From a virus: DNA of 64,000 nt. The translations under genes were made by a program, and so were the position numbers. The notes under the pieces were generated by a model, which had not been told where the DNA came from, made no database searches, and saw only the letters and a program-made list of their open reading frames with translations. Shown piece by piece: positions 16,022 to 40,583 of the stretch. Within the stretch, counting starts at the first letter, position 1; each line of letters opens with the position of its first letter. The DNA lies in the IMG/VR virus record IMGVR_UViG_3300017971_007887, positions 7,523 to 71,522 of that record. The stretch is one strand, 5' to 3'.

Positions 16022-16663
16022 TTAATTCACCTCCAGGACCTCATCCACCTGAGCCTTGGCCTCGGCGTCTATCTGCGCCAGATCCTGCATGATGTTCTCG
16101 TAGACCTCCGCGGACTTTACCCACTTCTGAATCACCACCAGGACCCTCTGCGTGATCTCCCTGGTGTGCGTGGCCACCACGAACTTGTCCGCGATCCCCA
16201 GACCCTTCCTCTCCACATCCACACCCTTGGCCATCAACGGCACCAGCATTGCCATGACCCTCATGCCCTCCTTGACATCCATTTCCCCGCTGTCCATCTG
16301 CCTGACGATGTTGACCGCCTTCTCCATGGCCACGCCAGCCGCCCCCTGCATGGCCTGCCCGACCTTGATGTGCCTGTCGGTGGCCTCAGCTATCTGTCTC
16401 TCCCTGCGTTCGGCGGCATCGATCTCCTGTTTCTCGGCCACCCGCCGGTCCACCCGCTCCCAGTGCTCCTTACGATACCTCGACCAGTGCTCGGAAGTGC
16501 ACCGCCTCCTGATGTTGTAGACGGAGCAGCCAGCGTGCCCCTCGAATTCCTCCGCTACTTCCTGGGTTGTATAACCAGGCGGATCGGAGTAGATGAACAT
16601 CTCCCTGGGAGTCCGCCACTTGCTCCTCTTCCTTCTCTTCTTGGGTGCCCGCTTGCGTGCCAT
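16022..16663 (-). CDS. terminase small subunit (probable)
   Basis: N-terminal HTH (TTQEVAEEF..SVYNIRRR...W), helical middle, KGVDVERKGLG; starts MARKRAPKK. Confidence 0.6.
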   Translation of the reverse strand: MARKRAPKKRRKRSKWRTPREMFIYSDPPGYTTQEVAEEFEGHAGCSVYNIRRRCTSEHWSRYRKEHWERVDRRVAEKQEIDAAERRERQIAEATDRHIKVGQAMQGAAGVAMEKAVNIVRQMDSGEMDVKEGMRVMAMLVPLMAKGVDVERKGLGIADKFVVATHTREITQRVLVVIQKWVKSAEVYENIMQDLAQIDAEAKAQVDEVLEVN

Positions 16664-17083
16664 CAGTTCCCCATCTCCTCCAACTTCCGCATCTCCACGG
16701 TGCCCCTGCGGGTCACAAACCACAGTTTTCCGTCGCCATCAATCGACGGGATCCAGCCGGCCAGGCCCATTTTTCGCAGCCTCCCGAGAAAGCTTCCCGC
16801 AGGAGCAGTCCTGGCATGGCCCCACATCGCCTGGGAGAACTGCCGGGTCGTCATGTTCCCCTCCGGGCTGCACCACAGGACCCTCAACGCCTTCTGCTGC
16901 GCGACTGTCAGTATCATCTTCCACCTCCACCCGGACGGCAACCACCTTCCACAGGCGGCGCCTGTCCGGAACTATCATCTTCTCAAACATGTGGTCCGCC
17001 ACCCGCTCACTCTCGTACAGGACCAGGTTCGGGCCAAAGTAGTTCAACCTGCCGCTTCTGGACACTATCGCGTGGAAGATCAT
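16663..17083 (-). other. two small hypothetical ORFs (one winged-HTH-like)
   Basis: ORFs ending at 16739 and 16663; LTVAQQKALRVL..MTTRQFSQAMW..LGRLRKMGL. Confidence 0.45.
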
Positions 17084-17628
17084 CTCACCTCCTTGAAGCC
17101 GACGGACTCTAGCGCCGCCCGGAACATGATGTTGGCAATGTCAACCTTCTCATTATAAACTTCCAACTTCAACCTGACATCTTCATTCACTGTTGTCCCC
17201 ACCACAATATACGTATTAATGGCCTCACACCCTTCGGGTGTAATTTCCAGACAGCCAAAACTGCACATCATGACCTGCTCCACCTGACTGTCTCCAGCAC
17301 TAACCTTGCGGACCACCTTCCACTCCCTGGGCTCTGCGTTCCCGCACCCGGCGTTCCGATTAACGGTCTCCACGAAACTGCCGTCCTTCCGGCACTGCTC
17401 CTTCACCTTCTCAGCGCACTCCTCGTGGACAGATCCGCCACACAACTGGCTGTGCACCCGGACACCAGGTTTGTTGCACACCACACACACCGGCTGCCGG
17501 GTAGCCTGGCGCATGCGCTCAGGTGTGGACGGTATGGATGTCATGAAGTCCCCGGTCGACAGCTTCTCCGGAGGACTCGAGTCGAACATGTCCCTCTGCC
17601 CCTTCTTGGGCGCTCTCTTCCTGGCCAT
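17080..17628 (-). CDS. hypothetical Zn-finger protein with beta-clamp-like motif
   Basis: MARKRAPKKGQRDMFD; CVVC...CGGSVHEEC. Confidence 0.6.
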   Translation of the reverse strand: MARKRAPKKGQRDMFDSSPPEKLSTGDFMTSIPSTPERMRQATRQPVCVVCNKPGVRVHSQLCGGSVHEECAEKVKEQCRKDGSFVETVNRNAGCGNAEPREWKVVRKVSAGDSQVEQVMMCSFGCLEITPEGCEAINTYIVVGTTVNEDVRLKLEVYNEKVDIANIMFRAALESVGFKEVR

Positions 17629-17643
17629 GATTCCGCTCCTGAC

Positions 17644-18060
17644 CTAGATGGCGGGACACGTTCCGGCAGACCACAGGAACGGCATCCAGTCTACCGGCAG
17701 TTCGTCGCCCCAACCCTGGGGAATATCACAGTGCTGATTGGCCCTCTGCAACCAGTAACAGTCGGCCGCCTCGGCGCACTCGGCGTTCGTGTACCCTTGG
17801 AACCACTCGTAGTCCACGCAGTCACCTTGATCCAGCACAGGATGACCGCAGAACATAGCCCACTGTGCCGCCTCGTCGCAAAGCCTGACACACTCCGCGT
17901 AGTGGGTGTCGTAGAAGTCCTGTGGATCGCACTGACACGTCCCCTCTGGTCCCTGGGGACCCTCGATCCCGCAGCCCGCCAGCCAAAACACCAGCACTGC
18001 ACAACCGACCGCAAAGGACAGGAACAGCACTGCCTTCGTCACGAAATCGTTTCCTTTCAT
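17644..18060 (-). CDS. Cys-rich lipoprotein
   Basis: Hydrophobic leader ending in LAGC lipobox; short GPQGPEG collagen-like linker; many Cys. Confidence 0.65.
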   Translation of the reverse strand: MKGNDFVTKAVLFLSFAVGCAVLVFWLAGCGIEGPQGPEGTCQCDPQDFYDTHYAECVRLCDEAAQWAMFCGHPVLDQGDCVDYEWFQGYTNAECAEAADCYWLQRANQHCDIPQGWGDELPVDWMPFLWSAGTCPAI

Positions 18061-18063
18061 TCT

Positions 18064-18387
18064 TCACCTCCTCCTATAATACCCGTGCCATCGGTACGGG
18101 CAGGCCTTCCTGAACGACTCAGACCACATTTGATCGTGATGTTTCTTCCTATTTTCGTTGATCCTGGTGTTCATGAACTCGTCGCCATGACGCGCGTGAA
18201 GTTCGGCACATTCCGGACAATGCACCACGGTTCTGAATCCGATTATATCGTACACTTCAACCAACTTCCATCCTTCAGGCCGCGGTTGCTTCTCTATCGG
18301 CAATTTCTCCTGACCGGCATCGTGCGTCACCAACCCGCCCCTGTCGCATGCCCAGCAAAGCCAATGGGTGGTGAGCTGCTCGACCAA
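18064..18387 (-). CDS. hypothetical Zn-binding protein
   Basis: CWAC...PEGW...HCPEC. Confidence 0.5.
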   Translation of the reverse strand: MVEQLTTHWLCWACDRGGLVTHDAGQEKLPIEKQPRPEGWKLVEVYDIIGFRTVVHCPECAELHARHGDEFMNTRINENRKKHHDQMWSESFRKACPYRWHGYYRRR

Positions 18388-19017
18388 TTACTTCCTCCTG
18401 GCGACTTCCATCTGGGTCCCATGATGCGCACCGTGCATCCACACATGCCACGCGTACTCCCTAGAGTCCGTGCCGCCACCAACAAAAGACGGCCTGGGAG
18501 TTAGACCGATTACTGCGTCGGGCGGGTTCTCGTTGATCCATTGGCTCCTCTCCGGGTTGGTCCACGAGCCCCCTATCCACCAGTCCGCCCTGAGCAAAAA
18601 CGCCGCGGCAGACCCGGGCGCGTGCGAACCCTTGACAAAGCTGACCGCCCGCCACACAAACTCGTGAGATAAACTGAACGGCGGGTTACTGACGTACAGA
18701 ACCCGCTCGTCATCGTTAATCTGTTCGTGCGGCCCTCCCCGATCAAACCAAGGGGGAACGTCTTCCTCCAAATACGCTTCATTCGCTGGAGAAAACTTCG
18801 GATCCCTCTGCAGGTCCAAGAACAGGATGTGTGGTCGGCCCTTGTAAGCTCGTTGGACTCCCAAGCCAATCCTACCATCGCCAGCACCCAAGTCTACCAC
18901 CACACCAGGTCTCGGAAGCGATCTCTCCAGCCGCTTGGCCAAGATATCGATGCACCAGTGCGGGGTCGGGTAGTTGTCACTCGCCCTGCGTTTTTTAGGG
19001 GCTTTCTTGCGCGCCAT
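18388..19017 (-). CDS. DNA amino-methyltransferase (m6A-type)
   Basis: DNYPTP, VDLGAGDG SAM motif, SNPPFS catalytic motif, RPSF..GGTD..EYAW. Confidence 0.85.
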   Translation of the reverse strand: MARKKAPKKRRASDNYPTPHWCIDILAKRLERSLPRPGVVVDLGAGDGRIGLGVQRAYKGRPHILFLDLQRDPKFSPANEAYLEEDVPPWFDRGGPHEQINDDERVLYVSNPPFSLSHEFVWRAVSFVKGSHAPGSAAAFLLRADWWIGGSWTNPERSQWINENPPDAVIGLTPRPSFVGGGTDSREYAWHVWMHGAHHGTQMEVARRK

Positions 19018-19021
19018 ATCT

Positions 19022-20449
19022 CTACCTCACACTCCAATAGGGTGTACGCTCCGGGTTCTGCCGCTCCAAGCCAATATACCGGTAGACCAATTCGTTACCC
19101 ATCATCTCCGGCTTCAATGCACCCTGGAAGTAATGCAACGGACTGCGCTGCGCCGATGGATCATTCCAGATCTCCTCCAGCTTATCGGCCCAGGTGAAAT
19201 GCCGTTTCTTGTAAACATTCAGCGGGCCAGCTCCCATATTACACATAGTGCCCATCAGCGTACCATGTGCCCACTCTGGAACGATATCTTTCAAATGGAT
19301 AACACGATCCTTGTCCTTCTTCGCATCCCGGGCACGGATGAGTGCATTGGTTGCGTTCTCCCGCTCCCAGTTGCCGAACACCGGGTCATCTTCCGGAATA
19401 CCGCAGCAACATCCGTGTTGACTCAACTGCTTCCAGCACGGATCACTGACGCCCACCTGCAAGCCGTTCTCCCTGGCCCGGTCATGGATGGCATGCATGA
19501 TCTGCTCCACCCACAGGTAGCTCGGTCGAAGACAGACCTGTCCCTTGCTCATGGCCATGTACACGTCCTTGAGCGGGACTCCCAACTTCTGCTCCATACC
19601 CTCCCACTTCTTCTTCTGCGGCTTGGTAAACCGCATCGGTACAAACCCACACTCATAGCTGACTGCGTAGGCCCCGGACTCGGTGGCCCGGTCGATCAGC
19701 TCTCGCCATCCATTCGGGTGCCTCGGTGTTGCATCCGTAAGGCCTGGATACATCGGTCGGCAGCGCAGGCTGGTCTTGATGCCAAGCTCCTTCGACAGCA
19801 CCTCCATCGTCCGCAACCTGTCACTCGGTGCCGGTGCTGCTACATCCACCTTGGCCGCAAGCTCGTCGTCGATGGTGTTGATGCTAAAAGCAACCCAGAA
19901 CAAGTGCGGTGCCTTCGCCAACTCTCGCATGTAATCCGATTCCCGTAACAGCGTTCCCTTCGTGCTGATGCGCACCGGCTGGCCATACTGGGTGGCCAAG
20001 CGAATGAAATCCAGGAGCCAACCCTGCTGTCGCTCAATGTTATCACAAGGATCGTTGATACCTCCCAGCTGCACAGGGCACGGGTAACCAGCCTTGTTAC
20101 GTCGATCGTACTTGAGCGCCTTCCGGATGGACTTGCCGAACTTGCCACCTCCCTCACCGGAAAAGATAGCCTCTAACTGTCGCAAGCTCATCTGCCCGAT
20201 AGGCTTCTCCTTGGTCTTGATGTGACCAGCCAACTGCTCACTAAAGCAATAGGAACAGGCATAAGAACAGCAAGAATGCGAATCTATAGTCACCGGTAAT
20301 GCACAATCAAAACCATCCGATGTCAGCCGAATTCCACCATAAGAACGCAACTTGCCTCTCGCGTTGTTACACCTGTCACGTGTTTTGCCTTTGCAAAAAC
20401 CACACTCGTCACAGACAGCACTCCCCATCTGTTGGTAACGTGCACCCAT
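19022..20449 (-). CDS. radical SAM protein (spore-photoproduct-lyase-like)
   Basis: CSYACSYCF (CxxxCxxC), GGINDP, ISTKG, AFSINT.DD..A. Confidence 0.85.
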   Translation of the reverse strand: MGARYQQMGSAVCDECGFCKGKTRDRCNNARGKLRSYGGIRLTSDGFDCALPVTIDSHSCCSYACSYCFSEQLAGHIKTKEKPIGQMSLRQLEAIFSGEGGGKFGKSIRKALKYDRRNKAGYPCPVQLGGINDPCDNIERQQGWLLDFIRLATQYGQPVRISTKGTLLRESDYMRELAKAPHLFWVAFSINTIDDELAAKVDVAAPAPSDRLRTMEVLSKELGIKTSLRCRPMYPGLTDATPRHPNGWRELIDRATESGAYAVSYECGFVPMRFTKPQKKKWEGMEQKLGVPLKDVYMAMSKGQVCLRPSYLWVEQIMHAIHDRARENGLQVGVSDPCWKQLSQHGCCCGIPEDDPVFGNWERENATNALIRARDAKKDKDRVIHLKDIVPEWAHGTLMGTMCNMGAGPLNVYKKRHFTWADKLEEIWNDPSAQRSPLHYFQGALKPEMMGNELVYRYIGLERQNPERTPYWSVR

Positions 20450-20459
20450 CACACCACCC

Positions 20460-21107
20460 TCACTTCTTCCAACTGCGCAACATCTTGGCAAAGTCCTCTG
20501 CCTTGATTTCGTGTTCGGTGCGCATGCTACCAGCTAGTAACTCCTGCAACTCCGCGAACAGGTCATCCTTGCCGTAAAACTCCACGAAGAACCAGTTCCC
20601 ATCACCCTTCGCCGGGATAGCCGGTACATCGCTACCATCCAACTCGGGCTTCTTGAAATCGTTCAGCTTATCGAAATCCACCCGGTGCATAAGCGCATCC
20701 AAACGCACCTCGGAAAACAACTCGTTTTCCACCTTGATGGTCTTCAGTTCCTCCAACAACGACGGCAACCTCTCAGACCAACCGCCTTGGATCTCCGGGT
20801 TGTTTAGCGTGACGTTCAGCATCTTCTCATGATCCTCATCCAGATCCACCACCGACACGTCCACCTCATCAACACCCTGACGAGCCAGCACCTTCAACCG
20901 CTGATGGCCGGCCACCAGCCTACTGGTGCGTTTATTCCACACCATCGGCTCCACCAAACCAAACTCCTCCACGCTCCTGCTCAGCCCAGCCAATTCATCC
21001 TCGGTAATCGTACGCGGGTTATAATCGGCCGGTGTCAGGTCCTCCAGCTTCATGCGCTTGACCTTCAACGCGGCAACCTTCCTATCAGCTTTCTTCCTCG
21101 CCACCAT
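20460..21107 (-). CDS. ParB/Srx-like N-terminal domain protein
   Basis: PADYNPR, FGLVEPMVWN, LVAGHQRL. Confidence 0.85.
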   Translation of the reverse strand: MVARKKADRKVAALKVKRMKLEDLTPADYNPRTITEDELAGLSRSVEEFGLVEPMVWNKRTSRLVAGHQRLKVLARQGVDEVDVSVVDLDEDHEKMLNVTLNNPEIQGGWSERLPSLLEELKTIKVENELFSEVRLDALMHRVDFDKLNDFKKPELDGSDVPAIPAKGDGNWFFVEFYGKDDLFAELQELLAGSMRTEHEIKAEDFAKMLRSWKK

Positions 21108-21351
21108 TGTCTCCTTTCATTCCCAGGCACCTGCCCACGTACAACTTGGGCTCACCCTTGACCCAGATAACCTGGATCTCCCAGCCGCCCGCGTGCAGCT
21201 GCGTCATTGCAGCACCGGGTCCCCGGCTGTCCAGGGTCTGGCCCACCTGGGCCGCGAACCTCTCCGGTACCCGGTGGGCCACCAACAGGTCCCTGCATTG
21301 GTCTCCGTTGATCTTCCTGTACACCTTCACCCTTCCCATCACAACCTCCAC
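21085..21351 (-). CDS. hypothetical protein
   Basis: Compact ORF filling the operon gap. Confidence 0.45.
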   Translation of the reverse strand: MEVVMGRVKVYRKINGDQCRDLLVAHRVPERFAAQVGQTLDSRGPGAAMTQLHAGGWEIQVIWVKGEPKLYVGRCLGMKGDNGGEEES

Positions 21352-24377: not shown

Positions 24378-24930
24378 TGGCCGCCCTGAGCCGGTCGATT
24401 ATCTGGCAACGCTCCTTGGTCTCCTTCCACTCCAAAAAAATGGTGTGCATCGCCATGCGAGCCAGCCCATACGAGTCCACTTGATTGTTGTCGACCAGCA
24501 CATCGTCGCCGACCCCCCACGACTTGTACGTGTGGTGCAGCATTACCTCTTTCTTTGCGTTACCCTTTCCGGTGACGTACTTCTTCAGTGTCTTTGGCGG
24601 CACCACCTGGAACAGGCACCTGTTCTCGCGCAGCAGCCTCCTCACCTGGCCGCCGATCTCGCCAAGCTGGTGTGCCTGGTGACCCTTGGCGAACGCGTAC
24701 CCCTCCAGAAACACCATGTCAGGATCCATCCGCTGGATCGACATCTCCACCTGAGTCGCCAGATAAATCAGCCGGTCCACCCGATCCCCCGTGTCCTGGT
24801 ACACAGGATTGAACTTGATGATGTTGCAGTTGGCGTCCATGTAACAAATCGAAAATCCCACAAGTGATGGATCAATACCAGCTGCCACAACGGTATCATC
24901 AAACTTCGGAGGTGCCTTCTTGCGCGCCAT
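24361..24930 (-). CDS. ruvC: RuvC-like Holliday junction resolvase
   Basis: GIDPS, FLEGY, LKKYVTGKGNAKKE, NNQVDSYGLA. Confidence 0.85.
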   Translation of the reverse strand: MARKKAPPKFDDTVVAAGIDPSLVGFSICYMDANCNIIKFNPVYQDTGDRVDRLIYLATQVEMSIQRMDPDMVFLEGYAFAKGHQAHQLGEIGGQVRRLLRENRCLFQVVPPKTLKKYVTGKGNAKKEVMLHHTYKSWGVGDDVLVDNNQVDSYGLARMAMHTIFLEWKETKERCQIIDRLRAANAQES

Positions 24931-24933
24931 TGG

Positions 24934-27294
24934 TCACTCCCACCCGACAGTCGAATGGGTGCCCCTGCGGGTTATAACAATATTGCGGTCCAAAGCCTCC
25001 GCGACCTCCTGCCTATGACTGACATCGAACACTTGACGGAAGCCAATGCTATTCAAACCGCGCAGCATTGTCAAGTACGTTCTCAGGTTTTCTTGGTCGA
25101 GCGACGCGCATGCCTCATCGATGGCCAACAGGGGCGCACCCAGCATCTTTGCGACGGCGATTCTCATGGCGATAGCCAGCAGTGCCTTGCCCCCGCCGCT
25201 GTCCTGATCGAACGATAGCTCCCTGGCCCCCTCCACCACACGGACGGTCATCTGGTTGGACTTCTTCCTCCCCCTCTTCTCCCCACATCCGCCGCAGTGC
25301 TTCTCGCCCTTGTCGAACGGTCGGCCGCAACCGTGGCACACGTCGGCCATCGTCCTCAGCTCGGTCTCGAAGCCGAACGACAACCGGTGGTCAGTGCCGA
25401 TCCGGGCCAGTATCGAGTTGGCCTGGGCCTCCAACTCCCGCACACCATTCTCGATCTGCATGTTGGGGATCCCTTGACGGCCTACCATCAGGCGCACGTA
25501 CCGCAGCAGAACCAGCTCCCGCTCCACCTTGCCTATCTCCTCCTCCACCCGCTCGACCGCGACCAGCGCCCTTCCCCGTATCTCCTCGCTGGCCTGCATG
25601 GACGCCAACTGACTGCGGAGGCCGCTCACCACTGCTCTGGTGACCGTGTTACCGCTCTCCAGAAGACGATTCCTGTGGGCCACCAGATCACCGACATCCT
25701 CCGGGTCGTGCTGATCCAAAAACTCCTGGGCCCTGGCCCTCTCCCGCTCCGCGTCCTCCAACACCTGCCACCTCTTGTCCACCTCGGCCTTCCTCGCGCT
25801 CAAATTCTGAAGCTGGGACTCCATATCAACCAGGGCCATCTGGTGCTTGTCGATTCTCTTCTGAATTCTGCCGGAGCTCTTGTTGATATCCTTGGTCCTG
25901 GGGCACTTGCCACTGTCCACCGGGCACACACCATCGAAGCTGCGCAGCTGTTCCCGGGCCTGCCGAATTGCACTGGTCTCAGCCCCAATCTTCATGTTGA
26001 CCTTGTCCATCTCTGCGGAAACCTCCGCTAGCTCGGTAGTGACCCTCTTCAGATCGCTGCCGACCGACTGACTCCCCTCCAATTCCACGCGCGCGGCAGC
26101 CACCCTCTTGGCCACCCCAATCCGCTCCTCGACACTGTGTAACTCCCGCTCCAGCTGAACCTGCCCGTCTATCGCCTCCTCGGCCTCTTGCAGTTCCTTG
26201 CGGGCCCTATCCATCTCCTCGGCATCCACCAGGTTGTCCTCGGCCTGCTGGCTGGACTGCTCAAGCTGAACCTGCAAGCGGTCCAGAAGCCTCTCGTGAT
26301 CCGCCTGCTCCGCTGAAACCTGCACCTCCACCTGGCCCCACACCTCCACGCCGAACCACCTGACCATGTCCTTCTGGATCTCCGCATTGGTCCGCCCCAA
26401 TAGCCCGTGCAGGTCGTCCTGCCTCACAAAGCAGGTGCGGACGAAGTCCTCCAGACCCAGACCAACCACTTTATCCTGAATGTGTCGGTCCGCCTCGCGC
26501 ACCCCGTACCTACGGCCGTTGATTATCACGGAGGACGAGTTGCCCTTCACCACCCGGTCTATCCTGACATTCTCCCCTCTATGGTCGACCAACTCGACGA
26601 AGACGCACAGGCTATCCTCACCCTGGTGAATGTACTGGTCCACCGACCTGACCTTCCTCGCAACACCGAACAGGGCGAACAGCAGCACCTCCAGGAACGC
26701 GCTCTTGCCCGCCCTGTTGGACCTGGTGATCTGCCCCTCGTACCTGCCATGCACTGCGAACACCCCCTCGTCGATCCCGTGCACCGCGAACTCGCCCTTG
26801 AACGGCTGGAAATTCTTGCCCCCAATCGCCTTGATCGTGAACGGCAAGAACTGCTCGGCTTGCCGGCCCTTTACATTGATCAGCAAACCGTCCAGTTTCC
26901 GTCGTACCTCATTCACATCGACACCGGCAGGAGCCCGCTCCTTGAGCCACATGTCGATTGCCTCCACCGGCTTGGTCCTTGCGGTCAGCTCCGGCATCCG
27001 CGCCTCGCTGGTCCCCACCACAACCATCTCGGGCCGGAACACGTGGTACGCACCGTTCTTCCTGCACCAGTCAGTCATGACATTCACCTGTGCATTGGCA
27101 ATCTCCTCATCCCCTCGATGGTGGCGCATCCTGATCTTAACCAGGGCGTCCTCAGGGGAATCCTGTAACTTCACATCCATGGAGTCTGGATCATCCGCCA
27201 TGTCCATGTCGATCTGAATCATGAGTCTTCGCGGTAGTTCCACGAACTTTCCCTTGAGGCCACTAAGCACATCCACCGCCCGCTTGCGTGCCAT
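24934..27294 (-). CDS. SbcC/Rad50-like ATPase with SbcD-like N-terminal extension
   Basis: SNRAGKS Walker A, FVRQ Q-loop, coiled coil with CPVD..CP, DSGGG signature, AIDE, SH. Confidence 0.85.
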   Translation of the reverse strand: MARKRAVDVLSGLKGKFVELPRRLMIQIDMDMADDPDSMDVKLQDSPEDALVKIRMRHHRGDEEIANAQVNVMTDWCRKNGAYHVFRPEMVVVGTSEARMPELTARTKPVEAIDMWLKERAPAGVDVNEVRRKLDGLLINVKGRQAEQFLPFTIKAIGGKNFQPFKGEFAVHGIDEGVFAVHGRYEGQITRSNRAGKSAFLEVLLFALFGVARKVRSVDQYIHQGEDSLCVFVELVDHRGENVRIDRVVKGNSSSVIINGRRYGVREADRHIQDKVVGLGLEDFVRTCFVRQDDLHGLLGRTNAEIQKDMVRWFGVEVWGQVEVQVSAEQADHERLLDRLQVQLEQSSQQAEDNLVDAEEMDRARKELQEAEEAIDGQVQLERELHSVEERIGVAKRVAAARVELEGSQSVGSDLKRVTTELAEVSAEMDKVNMKIGAETSAIRQAREQLRSFDGVCPVDSGKCPRTKDINKSSGRIQKRIDKHQMALVDMESQLQNLSARKAEVDKRWQVLEDAERERARAQEFLDQHDPEDVGDLVAHRNRLLESGNTVTRAVVSGLRSQLASMQASEEIRGRALVAVERVEEEIGKVERELVLLRYVRLMVGRQGIPNMQIENGVRELEAQANSILARIGTDHRLSFGFETELRTMADVCHGCGRPFDKGEKHCGGCGEKRGRKKSNQMTVRVVEGARELSFDQDSGGGKALLAIAMRIAVAKMLGAPLLAIDEACASLDQENLRTYLTMLRGLNSIGFRQVFDVSHRQEVAEALDRNIVITRRGTHSTVGWE

Positions 27295-28001: not shown

Positions 28002-29080
28002 CGCCGCACCTCCAGGTTCAGTCGTTCCACGATCTCGTCGAACAACACACTGTCCTTGACAAGGCGCAGGCGCAGGTCCTCCCAACCCCCCTTGACCTTG
28101 CGAATCATCGGATCGAACCCATCCAACCGGGGCATGGAGATCCTCACATAATCCCCGCTCTGGATAGTGTGTTTGCGTTGCCGCAGTTCAGCAATACACT
28201 CCCTCACCAGGTCCAGTCCCTTGGGCATGTCACCCTTGCCGTTGCTGGTGAAGAACGAACCCTCCTCGAACGTGGTGCCGTCGATCTTGTTATTCTCCAC
28301 CTTGTAGAAGGACTGGACCCCGACCACCTGCTTCTTCTGCTCGACCTTCTTGCAGTGGGTCACCCTGACACGCAGGCAGTTGTCGTACTTGAGCGACTGG
28401 CCACCGGGCAGCGACCACGTCTTACGACTGAACTGGTCCAGGTTCTTACGTTCCTGCAGGACCAGTACCAGGGTGCTCATGGACTCGTCTAGCTTGATTA
28501 CGATCTCCTTCATCCAGGTGCTGATCCACAGGGCCTGAATCGGGAACATCTTGTCGATGCCCTCCTTCTCGACCTTCTCCACGATGTTCTTGGGCATCAG
28601 CTTGGTGATGGTATCCACGATCTCGAAGCAGCCGGCCCTTTTCAAGATCTGCTCGTCCTTCTTGCGCGACTTCTTCTTGGACATCAGCTTGCCGATCCTG
28701 TCGTTGATGTTGTCACGCATCCCATCCAGGTTGACGGGGTAGTCCAGCTTGGCCTTGGGCACAATGGACGAGTACCATTCCTTCTCTGCCGCCCTCTCGG
28801 TGTCCTGAATGGCCACCGAGTGAAGGTTGCCGTAAGCCGACAAACCCAGGGCCATCGCGAACACCGACTTGCCGACCTGGTTTGGCCCGTGCACGATCAT
28901 GATCTTACCGCGGGCCAGGCCGCCGATTCCAGACGCCCGGTTGTACCCGGTGAGCACAGTGGGGAAGTACTCGACCTCCTCCATGTCCTCCACACGCCTG
29001 ACACTGTCGTCCGATATGGCGGCCAGTACATCCACCACCGGCCACTCTGCCTTCTTGCGAGCTGCCTTCTTGCGAGCCAT
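27998..29080 (-). CDS. RecA/UvsX-like recombinase
   Basis: GIGGLARGKI..HGPNQVGKS, IVDT, QER, PGGQSLKY; start MARKKAARKKA after AGGAG. Confidence 0.85.
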   Translation of the reverse strand: MARKKAARKKAEWPVVDVLAAISDDSVRRVEDMEEVEYFPTVLTGYNRASGIGGLARGKIMIVHGPNQVGKSVFAMALGLSAYGNLHSVAIQDTERAAEKEWYSSIVPKAKLDYPVNLDGMRDNINDRIGKLMSKKKSRKKDEQILKRAGCFEIVDTITKLMPKNIVEKVEKEGIDKMFPIQALWISTWMKEIVIKLDESMSTLVLVLQERKNLDQFSRKTWSLPGGQSLKYDNCLRVRVTHCKKVEQKKQVVGVQSFYKVENNKIDGTTFEEGSFFTSNGKGDMPKGLDLVRECIAELRQRKHTIQSGDYVRISMPRLDGFDPMIRKVKGGWEDLRLRLVKDSVLFDEIVERLNLEVRR

Positions 29081-31403: not shown

Positions 31404-34016
31404 TCAACGCTCATCGTCCCACTCCTCTTTACCATAGTAGCACCTGTGTCCGACAGTCTGTTCCACCGCCTTCACCATGGCCGGCGTCAGCGCCACCTTC
31501 ATACCGGTGATGACAGACGTGGTCTCCTCCAGCTCGTTCATGTGAGGTACCTTGGGCTCAATCACAATGTCTAGCACCAGCGGGTGCTCACCGAGATGAC
31601 CGGCCAGTGCCTTCTTGATGTCAGCCAACTTGCCCTGGTCCTCCCTCTGCAGGGTCAGGGTCACCTTGTCGGCTCGCTTGGCGGCGAACAGCCCCTCCTG
31701 CTTGGAATTTCCCGCCTGGTACTTCAGCATGGCCTTCCAGGGTACCTGGGGAAACGCCGCGTCCAGCACCAACTGAGACGCTGGGAACACCGGTCCGGTC
31801 CAGTACAGTTCCGCGTCGTAGTTACCGTCGAAATCGTCGGCGTGAATGGCCACCTGGTGGCTACTCTTGGCGGTCTTCTCCGTGCCAATCAGAACGTACG
31901 GCACCTTCATACCGACATAAAACTCTTTCCCGTCCTTTATCATCTGCTCGGCCACCCTCACCTGGGGCTGTTTGGTCTCGTACAGATCCGGGCGCTTGTT
32001 CACCGCCTTGGTGATTGTCAGATCCGCAGGATCCGCATGTCCGCCGAACAGCAAGTCGCGCCACCTGACCACTATCTCCCGAGCCCCCTCCACGGTCGGG
32101 TCGGCGTCCTCCATCAGGTAGTCGATGATCTCCTTCTGCATCTTCTGCCGTATCGGACAGCCGTCGGTACGGATATACGCCAACCCCTTCACGTCTAGCT
32201 TTCCGGTGACCTTCATCCCGGCGTAATTCTTCTTGGACACGAACACAATCCGGGTATACTCCGCGTCCAACTCCAACCGGATGAACCCGGGCTCGCCGCC
32301 CCTCTCCGACACCCAGGCGTCTATCACGGCCGCCATCTCCTCCGCGAACGCCAGGGCGGTGTCCCGGTCGCACAACACATACACCGAGTCGGTATCCCCG
32401 TACAGAACCTTGATGCCCCGCTTCTCGGCCTCGGCGATCACAAGCTGGATGATCTGCTTGGACGTGACCGTCACCGCCTCGCCGCACTCCCGGCTGTAGT
32501 ACCGGTGGTCCGGCGAGGACAGGATGCCGAACCCGCTGTTGCCGATCACTTTGTTTGCGTCCGACCTCTGTTTGGCCCGTCGGTACTCCGCGGTCCCCTC
32601 TTTGGACTGCTCCTCAAGCTCGATGGCCCGCTGTTTGAACCGGCGCCGGTTATACATCGAGTCGGACACCATCGACGGGAACACCCCCTCCTCGTCCAAC
32701 CTAAACACCGCCCCGTTCCCGGCAACACACGTCGGAATAGCAGAGGGCTTCTCCGCTCCCAACCCCACGTACGTCTCCGGGCTGATGTTGAACGACCGGA
32801 TTACGTTCGGATACAGCGACGCGAAGTCCAGGCAGCAGACGCCCTTGTGCAGTCCGGTCACTGGCTCCTTCACGTACGCCCCCTCGATCTTCCCGTCATC
32901 AACGAACGGGTTCTCTTTGCCGTAGAAATGGAACTTGGTAGGGAACCGTTTTCCGGTTGTCGCGCCCTTACGCAGGATGTACGCATCGTTCAGGTACCCG
33001 GTGCGCAGGCTGAAGTCCGACAGGAACCGGTTGCACAGGTGGCTCAAGGTCTTCAGTCCGTCCACGTACCCGAACTTCTGCTCCAGCCTGACCATGATCT
33101 GCACGTCCCGGCTGTTGTACTGCTTGAGTAACACCTGATCCTTCTGCCACGCCTGGTACACCGCCTGGGCGGGATGGCTTCCCACCATCCCATGTCGCTT
33201 CTGCATCTCCTTGACCAGGTCCAGCTTGGGCATATCCACCAGGGCCGAACCAACCACGTCCAAGGCAAACGTGAGCTTCACCCCGGTGGCCTCCGTGTCC
33301 CTGCCATACCCGAAGTAGGGATGCCGGAACAGCTCCAACATATCCAGGAAGTTGACCATCTGCCAGCGCGGCCAGATCCTGTTGTGTTTGAACCTGGCCT
33401 TGAGCACCGGCTCGTCGTACTCGCTCCCATTCCACGCCACCAACACGTCGTGATTGGCCACCACCTCCCCGAACCGATGCAGCAACTCCTGCTCCCCGGC
33501 GTCGTCGTCGCTCCTGGCCACGATAGTATCCCCAGGATGGCAATCCTGCGACCAGTAGCTGACCGACAGGATCCTGTGCTCCTCGGAGTGACTCCAGCCC
33601 AACCGGGCATCGGTCTCCAGATCGAAGAACAGCACCTTCGGGTCCTCGCTGAACTTCACCGGTCGGTCGGTCAGGAACCTGGAGATGGGCGGCAGGTCGG
33701 CCTCCAGGGGCTCCACCCCCTTGTTGCGCATCCAGTCCACCAGGCTCCTCAGGTCGTTGCGACTGCCCACCGGATACAGCCTGACGTACCCATCACTCGA
33801 CTTCACGTCCAAAAGCTGCGAGTCCAGTTCCCGGCAACGGATCTGCCTGTACTCGTCATCGGTGAGGTAGAAATAGTTCCGGAACGGGTGTTGCTCGATC
33901 AGCTTGCGCTCGCCCTCCCAATAGGACAGGCATATGTTGCCCTGCTTGTAGTCGAACCACCCGGCGGTGTAGCCGTCCGCCCGGGTGGCCTTCTTAGGCG
34001 CACGCTTCCTGGCCAT
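31404..34016 (-). CDS. family B DNA polymerase with 3'-5' exonuclease
   Basis: FDLET, WNGSEYD, YNSRDV; DFASLYP, KVIGNSGFG, YGDTDS, KKNY; C-terminal QEGLF. Confidence 0.95.
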   Translation of the reverse strand: MARKRAPKKATRADGYTAGWFDYKQGNICLSYWEGERKLIEQHPFRNYFYLTDDEYRQIRCRELDSQLLDVKSSDGYVRLYPVGSRNDLRSLVDWMRNKGVEPLEADLPPISRFLTDRPVKFSEDPKVLFFDLETDARLGWSHSEEHRILSVSYWSQDCHPGDTIVARSDDDAGEQELLHRFGEVVANHDVLVAWNGSEYDEPVLKARFKHNRIWPRWQMVNFLDMLELFRHPYFGYGRDTEATGVKLTFALDVVGSALVDMPKLDLVKEMQKRHGMVGSHPAQAVYQAWQKDQVLLKQYNSRDVQIMVRLEQKFGYVDGLKTLSHLCNRFLSDFSLRTGYLNDAYILRKGATTGKRFPTKFHFYGKENPFVDDGKIEGAYVKEPVTGLHKGVCCLDFASLYPNVIRSFNISPETYVGLGAEKPSAIPTCVAGNGAVFRLDEEGVFPSMVSDSMYNRRRFKQRAIELEEQSKEGTAEYRRAKQRSDANKVIGNSGFGILSSPDHRYYSRECGEAVTVTSKQIIQLVIAEAEKRGIKVLYGDTDSVYVLCDRDTALAFAEEMAAVIDAWVSERGGEPGFIRLELDAEYTRIVFVSKKNYAGMKVTGKLDVKGLAYIRTDGCPIRQKMQKEIIDYLMEDADPTVEGAREIVVRWRDLLFGGHADPADLTITKAVNKRPDLYETKQPQVRVAEQMIKDGKEFYVGMKVPYVLIGTEKTAKSSHQVAIHADDFDGNYDAELYWTGPVFPASQLVLDAAFPQVPWKAMLKYQAGNSKQEGLFAAKRADKVTLTLQREDQGKLADIKKALAGHLGEHPLVLDIVIEPKVPHMNELEETTSVITGMKVALTPAMVKAVEQTVGHRCYYGKEEWDDER

Positions 34017-34102: not shown

Positions 34103-34109
34103 ACTCAAC

Positions 34110-36705: not shown

Positions 36706-36720
36706 TTTTCCACCTCCAGT

Positions 36721-38085: not shown

Positions 38086-38902
38086 CACTCCCCTCCCTGG
38101 GACTCGTGACATCGATGTAGTTCTTCTCAGATTCCATGATCTGTTTAGCCAGTGCCGCCTCCTGCATGAAGCTCCTGTTGTAGTGCCACGCGCACCGGTC
38201 AGGCTGCTGCCCGGCATTCTTCTTGAACACCACGAACGCATCAATCAAACAATATTGGTTGGGCAGCTCGCCGTCCATCCCCCAGTTGACCATCTCTACC
38301 AGCAGGGGCTCGAACTGGGTGTAGTGCCTGAGCCTCTCCACCAACCACGTAGCCGACATACCCGGGTCGCGCAGGTGGGGGGTTCCCCTCCTAACATGCT
38401 CATCGCACCAGCCCAGGTTGCTCACGTGTAGGAACGCGTACCCGCCCTCCACCATCACCCGCTGCAGGTCATTGAGGTAGTAAGTGAGGCACGTCCGGTC
38501 GCAGTGCACCAGGCTGTCCCAACTGAACACGAACGACACACTGTCGTCCTTGATCTTGACCAAGTCCAGACCACCCGTATGGTAAAACCTTGCATGGGGA
38601 TCATTACAGAAACGTTCACGACAATATTCCACGCATCCCGGAATTAGATCAACTCCAATCACATCACCGTAATCAAGACTGATAGCTTGGAGATCTAACA
38701 AACAATTAGTCATTCGTCCATGACCACATCCGATCTCCAACCAATGACCTGGAGGAGGTGCCAACAATGCCAACGGTTGAATGCGCGGCTCCACCGTCAC
38801 CTGCCATAACTTGGCAGTACATCCCCATGCCTGGGACCACTCCTCCCCGTGCTCCTTCCACGGGCACTCGCTCCACATCTTCAGGTTGCCTTGGACGTTC
38901 AT
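38078..38902 (-). CDS. class I SAM-dependent methyltransferase
   Basis: LEIGCGHGR, GVDL, DSVSFVFSWDSLVH. Confidence 0.85.
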   Translation of the reverse strand: MNVQGNLKMWSECPWKEHGEEWSQAWGCTAKLWQVTVEPRIQPLALLAPPPGHWLEIGCGHGRMTNCLLDLQAISLDYGDVIGVDLIPGCVEYCRERFCNDPHARFYHTGGLDLVKIKDDSVSFVFSWDSLVHCDRTCLTYYLNDLQRVMVEGGYAFLHVSNLGWCDEHVRRGTPHLRDPGMSATWLVERLRHYTQFEPLLVEMVNWGMDGELPNQYCLIDAFVVFKKNAGQQPDRCAWHYNRSFMQEAALAKQIMESEKNYIDVTSPREGSDA

Positions 38903-38905
38903 GTT

Positions 38906-39157
38906 TCAACTCTTCAACAGATGGATCATCATACCGATCCGCCGGTACAGTATTTCCAGCGACTCCTGCAGCACATGCTCCACCATCTCATCTGGGTTAT
39001 CGTCAGTGCTATACAGGACCTCAGCGCCCATCACCAGCTGAAGTATGTTGTGGTTACCCTCCACCCGCACACCAGAGAACTCCGTGTTGTTGGTACGCTC
39101 CTCGATGTCAGCGTCCAGCAGCTGCACCAGATCCGCCAGCGAATCGAATGAAACCAT
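38906..39157 (-). CDS. hypothetical protein
   Basis: SD AGGAGGAG just after a palindrome copy. Confidence 0.55.
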   Translation of the reverse strand: MVSFDSLADLVQLLDADIEERTNNTEFSGVRVEGNHNILQLVMGAEVLYSTDDNPDEMVEHVLQESLEILYRRIGMMIHLLKS

Positions 39158-39174
39158 GCTCTCCTCCTTGCCTA

Positions 39175-39189
39175 TTAAACAGTGTTTAA
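39175..39189. promoter_or_regulatory. palindrome copy 4
   Basis: TTAAACAGTGTTTAA; intergenic. Confidence 0.8.
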
Positions 39190-39191
39190 GT

Positions 39192-39588
39192 TTAGTCATG
39201 CCCCCTGTCTCCAGGTTCTGTAATGGTCAACCCAAAACCACCATAATATCCGTTATGCTCATTGTGATTGACCAAGACAACAGTGCACTTGTCAGTGACG
39301 ATCTCAACAAAACAACATTCGTGCATCCCATACTCCTTCTCCAGATCGGGCACCTCTTTGACATCGATCTTGACGAACGTCCCACCCTCCAGTTCTCCTG
39401 GCTTGTCGTCCGTCATCATGTATCTCTCCTCGCAGCATGACTGCCCGTCGTCCCAGATTGCAATCTCCTTCCCGTCAGTAAACTTTATCCTGAATTTGTT
39501 TGCCTCTGCCAACATATTCATTCCATCCATGAGCAGTACCACCAGACAAATAATGGATCATCACCCCAAACCCCATTTGATCTGACAT
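39192..39588 (-). pseudogene. frameshifted conserved phage gene (DDGQSCCEERY family)
   Basis: SD GGAGG + ATG 39588 (MSDQMGFGVMIHYLSGG) is out of frame with the WDDGQSCCEERYM...HNGYYGGF part. Confidence 0.5.
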
Positions 39589-39616
39589 TTGTACACCTCC
39601 AGTTATAAAACTCGTT

Positions 39617-40315
39617 TTACAACCTCCGGTCCGGCCCGTCTACCGGAACACACTCACACATCTGCATCAGCCGGCTGTACAGCTTGTCCCCGTGACCACC
39701 GCCTGTGCCGTACCGCCGGATGTTGTCCGGTCGCAGGTTGGTGGTCACGATGGTGGGCGCCCCTGCCCACAGCCTGCCGTCCACGATGGTGTACAGGCAC
39801 TCCAACAACCGCTCGGTGGCCTTCTCTGCCCCCAGGTCATCCAGGATCAACACAGGTGTCGCCGATGGATCCGCCAGGTTCAAGATCGCCTCCTGGTCGT
39901 TGCGCGGAATCCTGACCGTGGGCAGGAACACCGTCAGCAGACCTGCCCCGATGAACCAGTTTGCAATGGCACACGCCAGGTGAGTCTTTCCACACCCAGT
40001 CTTGGGCCCGTACAGCATGATGCCCCTCTTGCCGTTCCACACAAGCTCGACCTGGGACACCCTGTCCTCGCCTACCAGTCCCATCTGACCGCCGAGCAAC
40101 CACTGGCTGTATGATAGGGCAGCAACGTACCCGGAGTGGTTGGCCTGCCGTCTATTGGTGTCAAACCTGGAGAACGTCATCCCCCTTCCCACAGGACCAA
40201 GATTGCTGGCCCGGTACAGTTCACCCTCCCTTGCCTTGCTTATAGGCCTCAATGTCCTTCTTGATCCAGTCGGTTCTTTCCTCCGGGTACTCCTGTCTGC
40301 CTTCTTTCTTACCAT
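39617..40315 (-). CDS. DnaC/IstB-like helicase-loader ATPase
   Basis: LYGPKTGCGKTHLA, LILDDLGAE, PTIVTTN, YSRL. Confidence 0.88.
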   Translation of the reverse strand: MVRKKADRSTRRKEPTGSRRTLRPISKAREGELYRASNLGPVGRGMTFSRFDTNRRQANHSGYVAALSYSQWLLGGQMGLVGEDRVSQVELVWNGKRGIMLYGPKTGCGKTHLACAIANWFIGAGLLTVFLPTVRIPRNDQEAILNLADPSATPVLILDDLGAEKATERLLECLYTIVDGRLWAGAPTIVTTNLRPDNIRRYGTGGGHGDKLYSRLMQMCECVPVDGPDRRL

Positions 40316-40583
40316 GTCTGCCTCCGTATTGATCGATGCCCGACACGAACACGTTCCACGGATGGTGCCTTTCCACCAGCCACCTGGAGCGGTCATCGAA
40401 GTACCTTCCGATCCGCCGCCTGATCTCGGACAGGCCGAATATCTGCAGCAGCTCCTTCAACCGGGTTCTCTGCCGGCCGGACAACCGGAGTGCCGACTGC
40501 TCTCCGTGGGTCGACAAGTACTTCGATCTATACACCCGTTCCACGATTCCGATCAACACCTTTGTCGGTGCCCTCTTTTTCAT
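40221..40583 (-). CDS. small protein resembling a replication-initiator C-terminal domain
   Basis: RLKELL..G..EI.RRI.RYF; directly upstream of the DnaC-like gene. Confidence 0.45.
   Translation of the reverse strand: MKKRAPTKVLIGIVERVYRSKYLSTHGEQSALRLSGRQRTRLKELLQIFGLSEIRRRIGRYFDDRSRWLVERHHPWNVFVSGIDQYGGRHGKKEGRQEYPEERTDWIKKDIEAYKQGKGG

What the first reader, a model, noticed from the sequence alone, without database searches (positions are those of the whole stretch)
16637..40583. Shared N-terminal MARK(K/R)A(PKK) tag on unrelated DNA-acting proteins
Seen: MARKRAPKK starts TerS (16663), the 17628 ORF and the polymerase (34016). Also MARKKAPKK (DNA MTase 19017), MARKKAPPK (RuvC 24930), MARKRAV (SbcC 27294), MARKKAARKKA (RecA 29080) and MVARKKADRK (ParB 21107). 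Weaker: MVRKKADR (DnaC-like), MKKRAPTK (40583), MAKKRP (portal), MARTK (RmlC). Codons vary (Ala GCA/GCC/GCG/GCT; Arg CGC/AGG/AGA/CGT), so conservation is at the peptide level, not a DNA repeat. Tail and lysis proteins lack it. It resembles a basic NLS or histone H3 tail motifs (ARTK, ARKSAP). Inference: an address tag for a replication compartment, a common docking partner, capsid loading (cf. the T4 capsid-targeting sequence), a degron, or a Lys/Arg methylation site. Caveat: MAKK-type starts are common in bacteria, but three identical 9-mers are not.
Basis: partly seen in the sequence, partly recalled or inferred. Interest (0 to 1): 0.86.

Follow-up and report, generated by a model that had tools for sequence, protein, structure and literature searches.

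The report
Shared basic N-terminal arm on phage DNA enzymes
An uncultured tailed phage starts at least eight unrelated DNA-handling proteins with almost the same lysine/arginine-rich peptide, probably a portable DNA-binding arm, though its function is untested.

Summary
The window is most of a 71.5-kb tailed-virus genome with all genes on the minus strand. Seven proteins start with MARK(K/R)A: PolB, RecA-like, SbcC, RuvC, a DNA methyltransferase, a TerS-like protein and an unknown ORF. A ParB-like and a DnaC-like protein carry near-variants.

Each start has a Shine-Dalgarno site and several are translationally coupled. Codon choice inside the tags is what independent draws from genome usage would give, so conservation is at the peptide level. 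It is not an mRNA effect.

Related viruses keep a basic N-terminal leader on the same protein families in their own spelling. This holds for 36 of 46 RecA relatives and 15 of 44 PolB relatives. The same nonamer also heads an endonuclease, a late sigma factor and a TerS in unrelated viral contigs. An AlphaFold2 model places the RecA tag in a low-confidence N-terminal coil ahead of the fold.

Best reading (about 0.5): a portable, disordered basic arm that tethers DNA enzymes to DNA. The near-identity of the peptide within this genome keeps a shared-partner "address label" alive (about 0.2). NLS, histone-tail, degron and capsid-loading readings are untested or unsupported.

This scan has noted similar shared basic terminal tags on other, unrelated phage genomes. 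The host is unknown, so the host-proteome check was not possible.

The parts
16637..16663 (-). Tag MARKRAPKK, followed by RRKRSKW, at the start of a 213-aa TerS-like protein (gene 16022-16663).
   Evidence: The ATG overlaps the stop of the upstream ORF (TGATG). The TerS label is only a lead.
17602..17628 (-). Tag MARKRAPKK at the start of a 182-aa protein of unknown function (gene 17080-17628). The tag is followed by GQRDMF.
   Evidence: No family found.
18991..19017 (-). Tag MARKKAPKK at the start of a 209-aa DNA methyltransferase (gene 18388-19017).
   Evidence: phrog_799, E = 1.2e-22. The ATG lies 4 nt after the stop of the upstream gene.
21078..21107 (-). Variant tag MVARKKADRK at the start of a 215-aa ParB-like protein (gene 20460-21107).
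   Evidence: ParB_N domain from residue 15. The G2 orthologue starts MGKKRRSK.
24904..24930 (-). Tag MARKKAPPK at the start of a 189-aa RuvC-like resolvase (gene 24361-24930).
   Evidence: RuvC domain from residue 18. The ATG lies 3 nt after the SbcC stop.
27277..27294 (-). Tag MARKRA at the start of a 786-aa SbcC-like ATPase (gene 24934-27294).
   Evidence: The ATG lies 2 nt after the SbcD stop. Orthologues start MGKVRRPKK (G1) and MAKKRRKRRP (G2).
29048..29080 (-). Tag MARKKAARKKA at the start of a 360-aa RecA/UvsX-like recombinase (gene 27998-29080).
   Evidence: 36 of 46 relatives have a basic leader. In the AlphaFold2 model, residues 1-10 have mean pLDDT 50 and residues 1-17 are coil.
33990..34016 (-). 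Tag MARKRAPKK at the start of an 870-aa family B DNA polymerase (gene 31404-34016).
   Evidence: This is the only start upstream of the conserved GYTAGW block.
40292..40315 (-). Weaker variant MVRKKADR at the start of a 232-aa DnaC-like helicase loader (gene 39617-40315).
40560..40583 (-). Weaker variant MKKRAPTK at the start of a 120-aa protein of unknown function (gene 40221-40583).
   Evidence: No family found.
3400..3417 (-). Weak variant MAKKRP at the start of the 559-aa portal protein (gene 1738-3417).
   Evidence: phrog_213. The G3 portal starts MVRKSKRQRKRA, but the G2 portal has no basic leader.

Best explanation
The tag is a short, disordered, lysine/arginine-rich N-terminal arm with a proline after the first basic cluster. 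It has been attached to many otherwise unrelated DNA enzymes of this phage lineage. It most likely binds DNA non-specifically, through the phosphate backbone or the minor groove. That would hold the polymerase, recombinase, nuclease, resolvase, methyltransferase, ParB-like protein, helicase loader and small terminase on phage DNA or the nucleoid, raising their local concentration or residence time.

Shown: the tags exist. They sit on true starts. They are conserved as peptides. They lie outside the folded cores. They mark DNA-acting proteins only. Relatives keep them as a property.

Inferred: that the target is DNA.
For: 1. All 8 tagged proteins that have a family assignment or lead act on DNA: PolB, RecA, SbcC, RuvC, ParB-like, methyltransferase, DnaC-like and TerS-like. 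None of the ORFs called in the tail/lysis stretch carries the tag, and the capsid protein does not either.

2. The pattern is one tag per complex. SbcC has it and SbcD does not. The DnaC-like loader has it and DnaB does not. The TerS-like protein has it and the TerL-like protein does not.

3. Across relatives the position and the basic composition are kept while the spelling varies. 36 of 46 RecA relatives and 15 of 44 PolB relatives have at least 3 K/R in the first 10 residues of a leader that precedes the conserved core. G1, G2, G3 and L082 put MGK(V/A/Q)R.., M.KRR.., MGRKK.. on RecA, SbcC, RuvC, ParB-like, methyltransferase and TerS orthologues. That pattern is expected for an electrostatic nucleic-acid arm.

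4. The same nonamer, MARK(K/R/Q)APKK, heads an endonuclease (phrog_945), a late sigma factor (phrog_234) and a TerS (phrog_309) in unrelated IMG/VR contigs. A composition-matched scrambled order gave 1 contig against 7.

5. In the RecA AlphaFold2 model (mean pLDDT 91.3) residues 1-10 have mean pLDDT 50 and residues 1-17 are coil. Pfam and PHROG domains start after the tags.

6. There are precedents. The disordered R/K-rich N-terminal arm of SimR binds the minor groove, and such arms are common in TetR regulators (PMC3241653, abstract and passages read). The basic N-terminal domain of the phi29 terminal protein gives non-specific DNA binding and nucleoid localisation (PMC4974454, passages read).
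Against: Within this genome the spelling is far more uniform than a purely electrostatic role needs. Three 9-mers are identical and R3-K4 is invariant in 9 proteins. The identical 9-mers differ by 6, 6 and 3 nucleotides, all synonymous. That argues for sequence-specific recognition.

The closest PolB relative has a less basic leader, MVRELAPKK. 29 of 44 PolB relatives lack a basic leader, so the arm is dispensable for that enzyme.

Several DNA enzymes here lack it: two helicases, DnaB, primase and SbcD.

No DNA-binding assay or model was possible with these tools.
Confidence: 0.5

Rival explanations
1. Address or docking label. The tag is read by one shared protein partner, phage- or host-encoded, or it drives entry into a replication or packaging factory such as a condensate. 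This would gather the DNA enzymes in one place.
For: Exact peptide identity is maintained within the genome while synonymous sites look randomised. 60 of 124 same-residue codon pairs are identical against 62.7 expected. Without Lys it is 25 of 79 against 25.0 +/- 5.3. G1 shows a different house style, MGK(V/A/Q)R on 6 proteins, and L082 has MGRKK on 2 of its 11 called ORFs. The N-terminal KRKST of T4 gp32 is a basic pentapeptide used for a protein-protein contact (PMC12424627, passages read).
Against: No candidate receptor was found. The conserved untagged neighbours have no informative family. G2 and G3 mix several spellings in one genome. RecA and PolB leaders that I paired by equal longest-contig length often differ. 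The same nonamer occurs on DNA-binding proteins of unrelated phages with 39-54% GC, which fits a universal target such as DNA better than a lineage-specific receptor. No chimallin-size early protein was noticed.
Confidence: 0.2
2. Expression device. The first codons are selected for efficient translation initiation or early elongation, not for a function of the mature peptide.
For: M-A/G-K/R-K starts are common in bacteria (my own knowledge). All tags follow good Shine-Dalgarno sites.
Against: Synonymous positions in the tags show no A/T preference. Lys is AAG as in the genome and Arg is mostly CGC or CGG. Codons 2-10 of tagged genes are less AT-rich than those of untagged genes, 0.41 against 0.48. 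Folding energy over -25 to +36 is the same, -11.5 against -12.6 kcal/mol (Mann-Whitney p = 0.61). The capsid and tail genes lack the tag. The tags persist in a relative with 45% GC. The motif order is conserved beyond composition.
Confidence: 0.1
3. Regulatory handle. The tag is a shared degron, a processing site, or a Lys/Arg modification site that lets one enzyme control the lifetime or activity of all tagged proteins together.
For: There is sequence-specific conservation within the genome. A small residue follows Met in every tag (A, G or V), so the Met is probably removed, leaving a uniform free end (inference from established Met-aminopeptidase rules).
Against: No protease, kinase or protein methyltransferase was identified near the tagged genes. 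The tags do not match the N-terminal ClpX or ClpS rules as I recall them. Spelling varies freely between relatives.
Confidence: 0.08
4. Capsid-loading signal. The tag loads proteins into the head beside the DNA, like a capsid targeting sequence or an encapsulin cargo peptide.
For: Packaging-side proteins also carry it: the TerS-like protein, weakly the portal here and strongly the portal in G3. So does a protein encoded just after the capsid gene in G2 and G3, and a 1101-aa methyltransferase-domain protein among G1's virion genes.
Against: Packaging a polymerase, RecA, SbcC, RuvC and a helicase loader is implausible. No (L/I)xE-type cleavage site follows the tags (read by eye). No virion proteomics exists.
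Confidence: 0.05
5. Artefact. The starts are mis-called or the similarity is a DNA repeat.
For: For RuvC a GTG 14 codons downstream would give a typical RuvC start.
Against: That GTG has no Shine-Dalgarno site, while the ATG has one and lies 3 nt after the upstream stop. The PolB ATG is the only start upstream of the conserved block. Independent database gene calls for 46 RecA relatives begin with the leader. There is no excess codon identity and no upstream similarity, 0.33 against 0.29.
Confidence: 0.02

Closest known systems
Flexible R/K-rich N-terminal arms of DNA-binding proteins: the SimR/TetR-family 'TFR arm', the lambda repressor arm and homeodomain arms.
   Same: A short, disordered, basic extension lies directly N-terminal to the folded domain and adds DNA affinity through groove or backbone contacts. 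Such arms are widespread but variable in spelling (PMC3241653, abstract and passages read). Here the leaders are basic, precede the cores and are low-confidence coil.
   Different: Those arms belong to one protein family each and assist a sequence-specific domain. Here one near-identical peptide sits on at least 8 unrelated enzymes of one genome.
phi29-type terminal protein N-terminal domain (nucleoid targeting; NLS-like signals in phage terminal proteins).
   Same: A basic N-terminal part of a phage replication protein gives non-specific DNA binding, places the replication machinery on the nucleoid and resembles a eukaryotic NLS (PMC4974454, passages read).
   Different: That is a helical domain of about 70 residues on a single protein, which then recruits the polymerase. 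Here a 6-11-residue peptide sits on each enzyme separately. No terminal protein was identified.
AT-hook and SPKK-type minor-groove peptides (definitions recalled, not from a call).
   Same: These are portable short basic motifs containing proline, found on many unrelated DNA-associated proteins. APKK and RRPKK resemble S/T-P-K-K.
   Different: The tags have no G-R-P core and no Ser/Thr before the Pro. Those motifs are mostly internal or repeated, whereas this one is strictly N-terminal: 9 of the 10 motif matches among the called proteins are at residue 2-3, counting RecA's first copy.
T4 gp32 N-terminal LAST motif (KRKST).
   Same: A basic pentapeptide at the extreme N-terminus of a phage DNA-metabolism protein, resembling DNA-contacting residues (PMC12424627, passages read).
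   Different: It mediates gp32-gp32 cooperativity on one protein and contains Ser-Thr. It is not shared across enzymes.
T4 capsid targeting sequence, encapsulin cargo-loading peptides and microcompartment encapsulation peptides (recalled).
   Same: These are true shared terminal address peptides on unrelated proteins.
   Different: They are not basic arms. They address a protein shell. The T4 sequence is cleaved at (L/I)xE, which is absent here.
Selective protein import into the chimallivirus phage nucleus (PMC11087766, search listing and abstract start only).
   Same: It concentrates phage DNA enzymes around phage DNA.
   Different: It belongs to jumbo phages with a shell protein. No simple linear N-terminal tag is known for it, as far as I recall. 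This genome is 71.5 kb as held, and no shell-size early protein was noticed.

Membership tests
Disordered basic N-terminal DNA-binding arm (TFR-arm type) | An extension N-terminal to the conserved core that is enriched in Arg and Lys. | tested here: met
   The tags precede the Pfam/PHROG domain starts (ParB_N from residue 15, RuvC from residue 18). They also precede the conserved blocks of RecA and PolB. There are 5-8 K/R in the first 12 residues for 6 of the 8 strong tags, 4 for RuvC and 3 for SbcC.
Disordered basic N-terminal DNA-binding arm (TFR-arm type) | [quoted passage not shown] | tested here: met
   In the AlphaFold2 model of the RecA-like protein built from 46 sequences, residues 1-10 have mean pLDDT 50 and residues 1-17 have no secondary structure. 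This was tested on one of the tagged proteins only.
Disordered basic N-terminal DNA-binding arm (TFR-arm type) | The arm contributes to DNA binding. | not testable with these tools
   This needs EMSA or anisotropy measurements with and without the tag.
AT-hook | An R-G-R-P (G-R-P) core flanked by basic residues (recalled definition). | tested here: not met
   No GRP occurs in any of the 12 N-termini.
SPKK motif | Ser/Thr-Pro-Lys/Arg-Lys/Arg (recalled definition). | tested here: not met
   Four tags have A-P-K-K and one has P-P-K. None has Ser or Thr before the Pro.
Classical nuclear localisation signal | A K-(K/R)-x-(K/R) cluster that is read by importin in a eukaryotic host. | tested here: inconclusive
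   The pattern is present, for example PKKRRKR in the TerS-like protein. However, the virus has Shine-Dalgarno sites and DnaB, DnaC-like, RuvC and RecA families. A eukaryotic host is therefore very unlikely. Import cannot be tested here.
T4 capsid targeting sequence | An N-terminal leader removed by the prohead protease at (L/I)-x-E, and delivery into the head (recalled). | tested here: not met
   No L/I-x-E follows the tags (read by eye). Head delivery is not testable.
T4 gp32 LAST motif | (Lys/Arg)3(Ser/Thr)2 (PMC12424627). | tested here: not met
   No Ser/Thr pair follows the basic residues in any MARK tag.
Beta-clamp or sliding-clamp binding peptide | Hydrophobic anchor residues, as in Q-x-x-(L/M)-x-F or similar (recalled). 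| tested here: not met
   The tags have no hydrophobic residue other than Ala. Only the 17628 ORF has QRDMF, and that lies after the tag.

The most novel reading that the evidence does not exclude
The tag is a genome-standardised address label. One still unidentified reader, a phage or host protein or the phage's own DNA-protein condensate, recognises (M)ARK(K/R)APKK. It thereby assembles replication, recombination, DNA-modification and packaging-initiation enzymes into a single factory. This would be a bacterial-virus counterpart of an NLS. Each lineage would evolve its own spelling together with its reader: MARK.. here, MGK.R.. in G1, MGRKK.. in L082 and G3.
Probability: 0.2. Interest if true: 0.85.

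Novelty: new variant of a known kind. Interest (0 to 1): 0.6.

Why it matters
If the arm tethers enzymes to DNA, this phage lineage has done naturally what engineers do when they fuse non-specific DNA-binding modules to polymerases. It used a 9-residue peptide and applied it across a whole replication, recombination and packaging toolkit. That would give a minimal, transferable tag to test on enzymes.

If the arm is instead read by a partner, it would be a simple linear sorting signal for viral DNA factories in bacteria, which to my knowledge is not described.

This scan has noted comparable shared basic terminal tags in several unrelated uncultured phages and giant viruses. The phenomenon may therefore be general and under-reported. 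My four targeted literature searches found no paper describing it.

Tried and rejected
DNA repeat or recent copying was rejected. Codon identity inside the tags equals the expectation from genome codon usage. Upstream regions are no more alike than for other gene pairs.

An mRNA-structure or AT-richness explanation was rejected.

Close relatives were sought in several ways. Megablast of 20 kb against the phage collection found no match. Single-protein scans of viral contigs with PolB and RecA gave nothing useful. Alignment-based scans gave G1, G2, L082, L083, G3 and G4. L175 proved 99.99% identical to G1 and G4 about 99.9% identical to G3, so they added nothing.

Host identification failed. 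Two genome-contig scans, with the RecA alignment and the capsid alignment, found no relative. Cluster look-up of 10 PolB relatives gave no organism names. No tRNA genes were found. I used 2356 ORFs from 113 other PolB-bearing loci as a stand-in.

A hub or receptor was looked for among conserved untagged neighbours. Pfam and PHROGs gave only zinc ribbons or nothing. The second structure job, fold search and the search of protein representatives were not used.

My first scrambled-order control carried one Lys codon too many. It is not composition-matched, so its zero is not used. The corrected control is. The numbers are small: 7 contigs against 1, and of the 7, two are identical and two are near-identical.

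Within-genome concordance of spelling across many relatives could not be tested properly. That needs the contigs behind the PolB and RecA database hits.

Supplementary files of papers were not consulted.

Full report
**What the window is.** The window is bases 7523-71522 of a single 71,522-bp virus record. GC is about 59%. Essentially all genes are on the minus strand: 92 ORFs by a GC3- and Shine-Dalgarno-guided caller. Family searches identify a replication, recombination and modification block:
- a UvrD-like helicase and an SF2 helicase
- a DnaC-like loader, DnaB and a primase
- a family B polymerase
- a RecA/UvsX-like recombinase
- SbcD, SbcC and RuvC
- a ParB-like protein, a radical-SAM-like protein and a DNA methyltransferase

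A weak TerL and a portal follow. Megablast of 20 kb against the phage collection found no match. No host could be named.

**The observation.**
- MARKRAPKK at 16663, 17628 and 34016
- MARKKAPKK at 19017
- MARKKAPPK at 24930
- MARKRAV at 27294
- MARKKAARKKA at 29080
- MVARKKADRK at 21107
- MVRKKADR at 40315
- MKKRAPTK at 40583
- MAKKRP at 3417
- MARTK at 21887

Using one simple caller on everything, 7 of 88 ORFs of at least 80 aa in this genome start MARK. Eight of 88 have at least 4 K/R and no D/E in the first ten residues. In 113 other PolB-bearing viral or metagenomic loci the figures are 3 and 42 of 2356 ORFs. Fisher p is 6.8e-9 and 3.2e-4 respectively. In none of those 113 loci did any residue 2-4 triplet occur on more than two ORFs, but each locus holds only about 21 ORFs on average. 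Among the called proteins the motif is strictly N-terminal. Nine of ten regex matches, counting RecA's first copy, are at residue 2 or 3. The tenth is an unrelated internal PAPPK.

**The starts are real.** Each tagged ATG has a GGAG/GAGG-type site a few bases upstream. Several are coupled to the upstream gene:
- the TerS-like ATG overlaps the preceding stop (TGATG)
- the SbcC ATG lies 2 nt after the SbcD stop
- the RuvC ATG lies 3 nt after the SbcC stop
- the methyltransferase ATG lies 4 nt after the stop of the upstream gene

For PolB the ATG is the only start upstream of the conserved GYTAGW block. Database proteins called by other pipelines begin with equivalent leaders. Only for RuvC does a downstream GTG give a plausible alternative, and it has no Shine-Dalgarno site.

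**Peptide-level conservation, not DNA-level.** The three identical 9-mers differ from one another by 6, 6 and 3 nucleotides, all synonymous (counted by eye). By my own count about 19 of the 81 possible single-base changes in such a tag are synonymous. Six synonymous-only differences would then have a probability of roughly 1.5e-4 without selection. Over the seven MARK tags, 60 of 124 same-residue codon pairs use the same codon, against 62.7 expected from genome codon usage. Leaving out Lys, it is 25 of 79 against a simulated 25.0 +/- 5.3 (P = 0.51). The 25 bases upstream are no more alike among tagged genes (0.33) than among 57 other genes (0.29).

**Not an mRNA effect.** Synonymous positions show no A/T preference. 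Codons 2-10 of ten tagged genes are less AT-rich than those of 71 untagged genes, 0.41 against 0.48. Predicted folding of -25 to +36 is the same, -11.5 against -12.6 kcal/mol (Mann-Whitney p = 0.61). The capsid and tail genes do not carry the tag. A relative with 45% GC keeps such leaders.

**Who carries it.** Of 14 proteins with a DNA-related family assignment or lead, 8 carry a strong tag: the DnaC-like loader, PolB, RecA, SbcC, RuvC, the ParB-like protein, the methyltransferase and the TerS-like protein. Six do not: two helicases, DnaB, primase, SbcD and the TerL-like protein. Where two proteins are known from their families to work as a pair, one is tagged: SbcC not SbcD, the loader not DnaB, TerS not TerL. 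That the pairs form here is my inference from those families. Two tagged proteins, at 17628 and 40583, have no family.

**Relatives.** Four related viral contigs were assembled from loci:
- G1, 94.9 kb, shares the replication block.
- G2, 61.8 kb, shares the recombination and structural blocks (capsid 64% identical).
- G3, 55.8 kb and 45% GC, shares the structural block.
- L082, 10.3 kb.

 Basic N-termini make up 9 of 103 ORFs in G1 and 7 of 77 in G2, about five times the background. Orthologues keep a leader in a different spelling:
- RecA: MGKARKNKPKP (G1), MKKKKAAKKKRRR (G2), MGRKKEQES (L082)
- SbcC: MGKVRRPKK (G1), MAKKRRKRRP (G2), MGKVKARK (L083)
- RuvC: MMKRRKKS (G2)
- ParB-like: MGKKRRSK (G2)
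- methyltransferases: MSRRKMM (G2), MTRKLAKKK (G3)
- TerS-like: MGRKKSKKK (G3)
- portal: MVRKSKRQRKRA (G3), but no leader in G2

 SbcD orthologues are untagged in Q, G2 and L082; the G1 start is uncertain, since my call adds 30 non-basic residues ahead of the aligned block. G1 has its own house style, MGK(V/A/Q)(R/N)., on six proteins. In the protein database, 36 of 46 RecA relatives have at least 3 K/R in the first ten residues of a leader that precedes the conserved helix, and 33 of 46 start M-(A/G)-(R/K). For PolB the figures are 15 of 44 and 10 of 44. The closest PolB (69% identical) reads MVRELAPKK. The leader is therefore an old, labile appendage of this virus group. It is always at the extreme N-terminus and always basic, and it is unusually standardised in this genome.

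**The same nonamer elsewhere.** A degenerate DNA pattern for M-A-R-K-x-A-P-K-K found 7 of the 2.9 million IMG/VR contigs, one copy each. Three hits are 13-codon frames. Four are the starts of real ORFs: an endonuclease (phrog_945), a late sigma factor (phrog_234; two near-identical contigs, one searched) and a small terminase (phrog_309). A composition-matched scrambled order found 1 contig. An earlier control was mis-specified. The numbers are small, but all the real ORFs encode DNA-binding proteins of unrelated phages. No other contig carries the tag more than once. The window's own record or very close kin may be hidden from these scans.

**Structure.** An AlphaFold2 model of the RecA-like protein built from 46 sequences has mean pLDDT 91.3. 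Residues 1-10 average 50 and residues 1-17 are coil. Domain matches of the ParB-like, RuvC and methyltransferase proteins begin after the tags.

**Reading.** The simplest account of all this is a portable, disordered basic arm that adds non-specific DNA affinity or nucleoid association to whichever enzyme or complex carries it (confidence about 0.5). Two kinds of precedent exist. One is the R/K-rich N-terminal arm of SimR, which is disordered until it binds the minor groove, and similar arms in most TetR regulators (PMC3241653). The other is the basic N-terminal domain of the phi29 terminal protein, which binds DNA non-specifically, places the replication machinery on the nucleoid and doubles as an NLS in eukaryotic cells (PMC4974454). 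The within-genome identity of spelling does not fit as comfortably. R3-K4 is invariant in nine proteins despite randomised synonymous sites. That points to sequence-specific recognition: a defined groove-binding conformation, as with AT-hooks, or one shared reader (about 0.2). T4 gp32's N-terminal KRKST shows that such a peptide can serve a protein-protein contact (PMC12424627). Expression, degron or modification, capsid-loading and artefact readings are weaker, for the reasons given under the rivals.

**Novelty and limits.** Basic N-terminal arms are known for single proteins and families. One near-identical nonamer on at least eight unrelated DNA enzymes of a phage, with lineage-specific spellings in relatives, is to my knowledge not described. 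Four literature searches found nothing on it. Two further searches supplied the comparators. Earlier notes of this scan report comparable shared basic terminal tags in other uncultured viruses. These are unchecked AI notes and not independent evidence. They do suggest the pattern is recurrent.

The following were not done:
- any binding test
- host identification
- the host-proteome comparison

Noticed in passing
window 17080-17628 (-): Right after its tag, the unknown 182-aa protein reads GQRDMF. No family was found, and the Atlas model is poor (pLDDT 0.45).
   Followed up: partly
window 24934-27294 (-): The SbcC-like protein has about 150 residues ahead of the first SMC_N/AAA_23 match (from residue 155). 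It therefore carries an extra N-terminal region between the tag and the ATPase head.
   Followed up: no
window 27998-29080 (-), protein P0131: The database holds this exact RecA-like protein on 2 contigs, the longer of 91,869 bp. The 71.5-kb record may be incomplete, or a near-identical larger relative exists.
   Followed up: no
G1 91876-92019 (L168 11876-12019, +); G3 1536-1709 (L188, +): Tiny hyper-basic ORFs sit next to DNA-modification genes in relatives. One has 47 aa (MGRRDKRRRKKKKAKKRK..) and the other 57 aa (MEKRREKRKRRRKKAERG..). They look protamine-like and are unexplained.
   Followed up: no
G1 17709-21014 (L164 17709 onward, +): A 1101-aa protein among G1's virion genes starts MGKQRRQ and contains a DNA methyltransferase domain (phrog_56, phrog_13242). 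It is reminiscent of head-packaged anti-restriction methyltransferases.
   Followed up: partly
G2 38613-39251 (L170 18613-19251, +); G3 24746-25357 (L189 4746-5357, +): The gene just downstream of the major capsid gene encodes a protein of about 205 aa with a basic leader (MAKRRKLVVKK, MGKKLAKKK) and no family. In this genome the equivalent ORF may run off the contig end near 63512-64000.
   Followed up: partly
proteins P0023, P0024, P0049 (PolB relatives): Some PolB relatives have 1217-1416 aa. One of them, P0023, carries a precomputed PF14528 (LAGLIDADG-type) hit, which suggests an intein-interrupted polymerase in this virus group.
   Followed up: no
G2 24283-25518 (L170 4283-5518, +): The G2 orthologue of the ParB-like protein is fused to a PAPS-reductase-like domain (phrog_424).
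   Followed up: no
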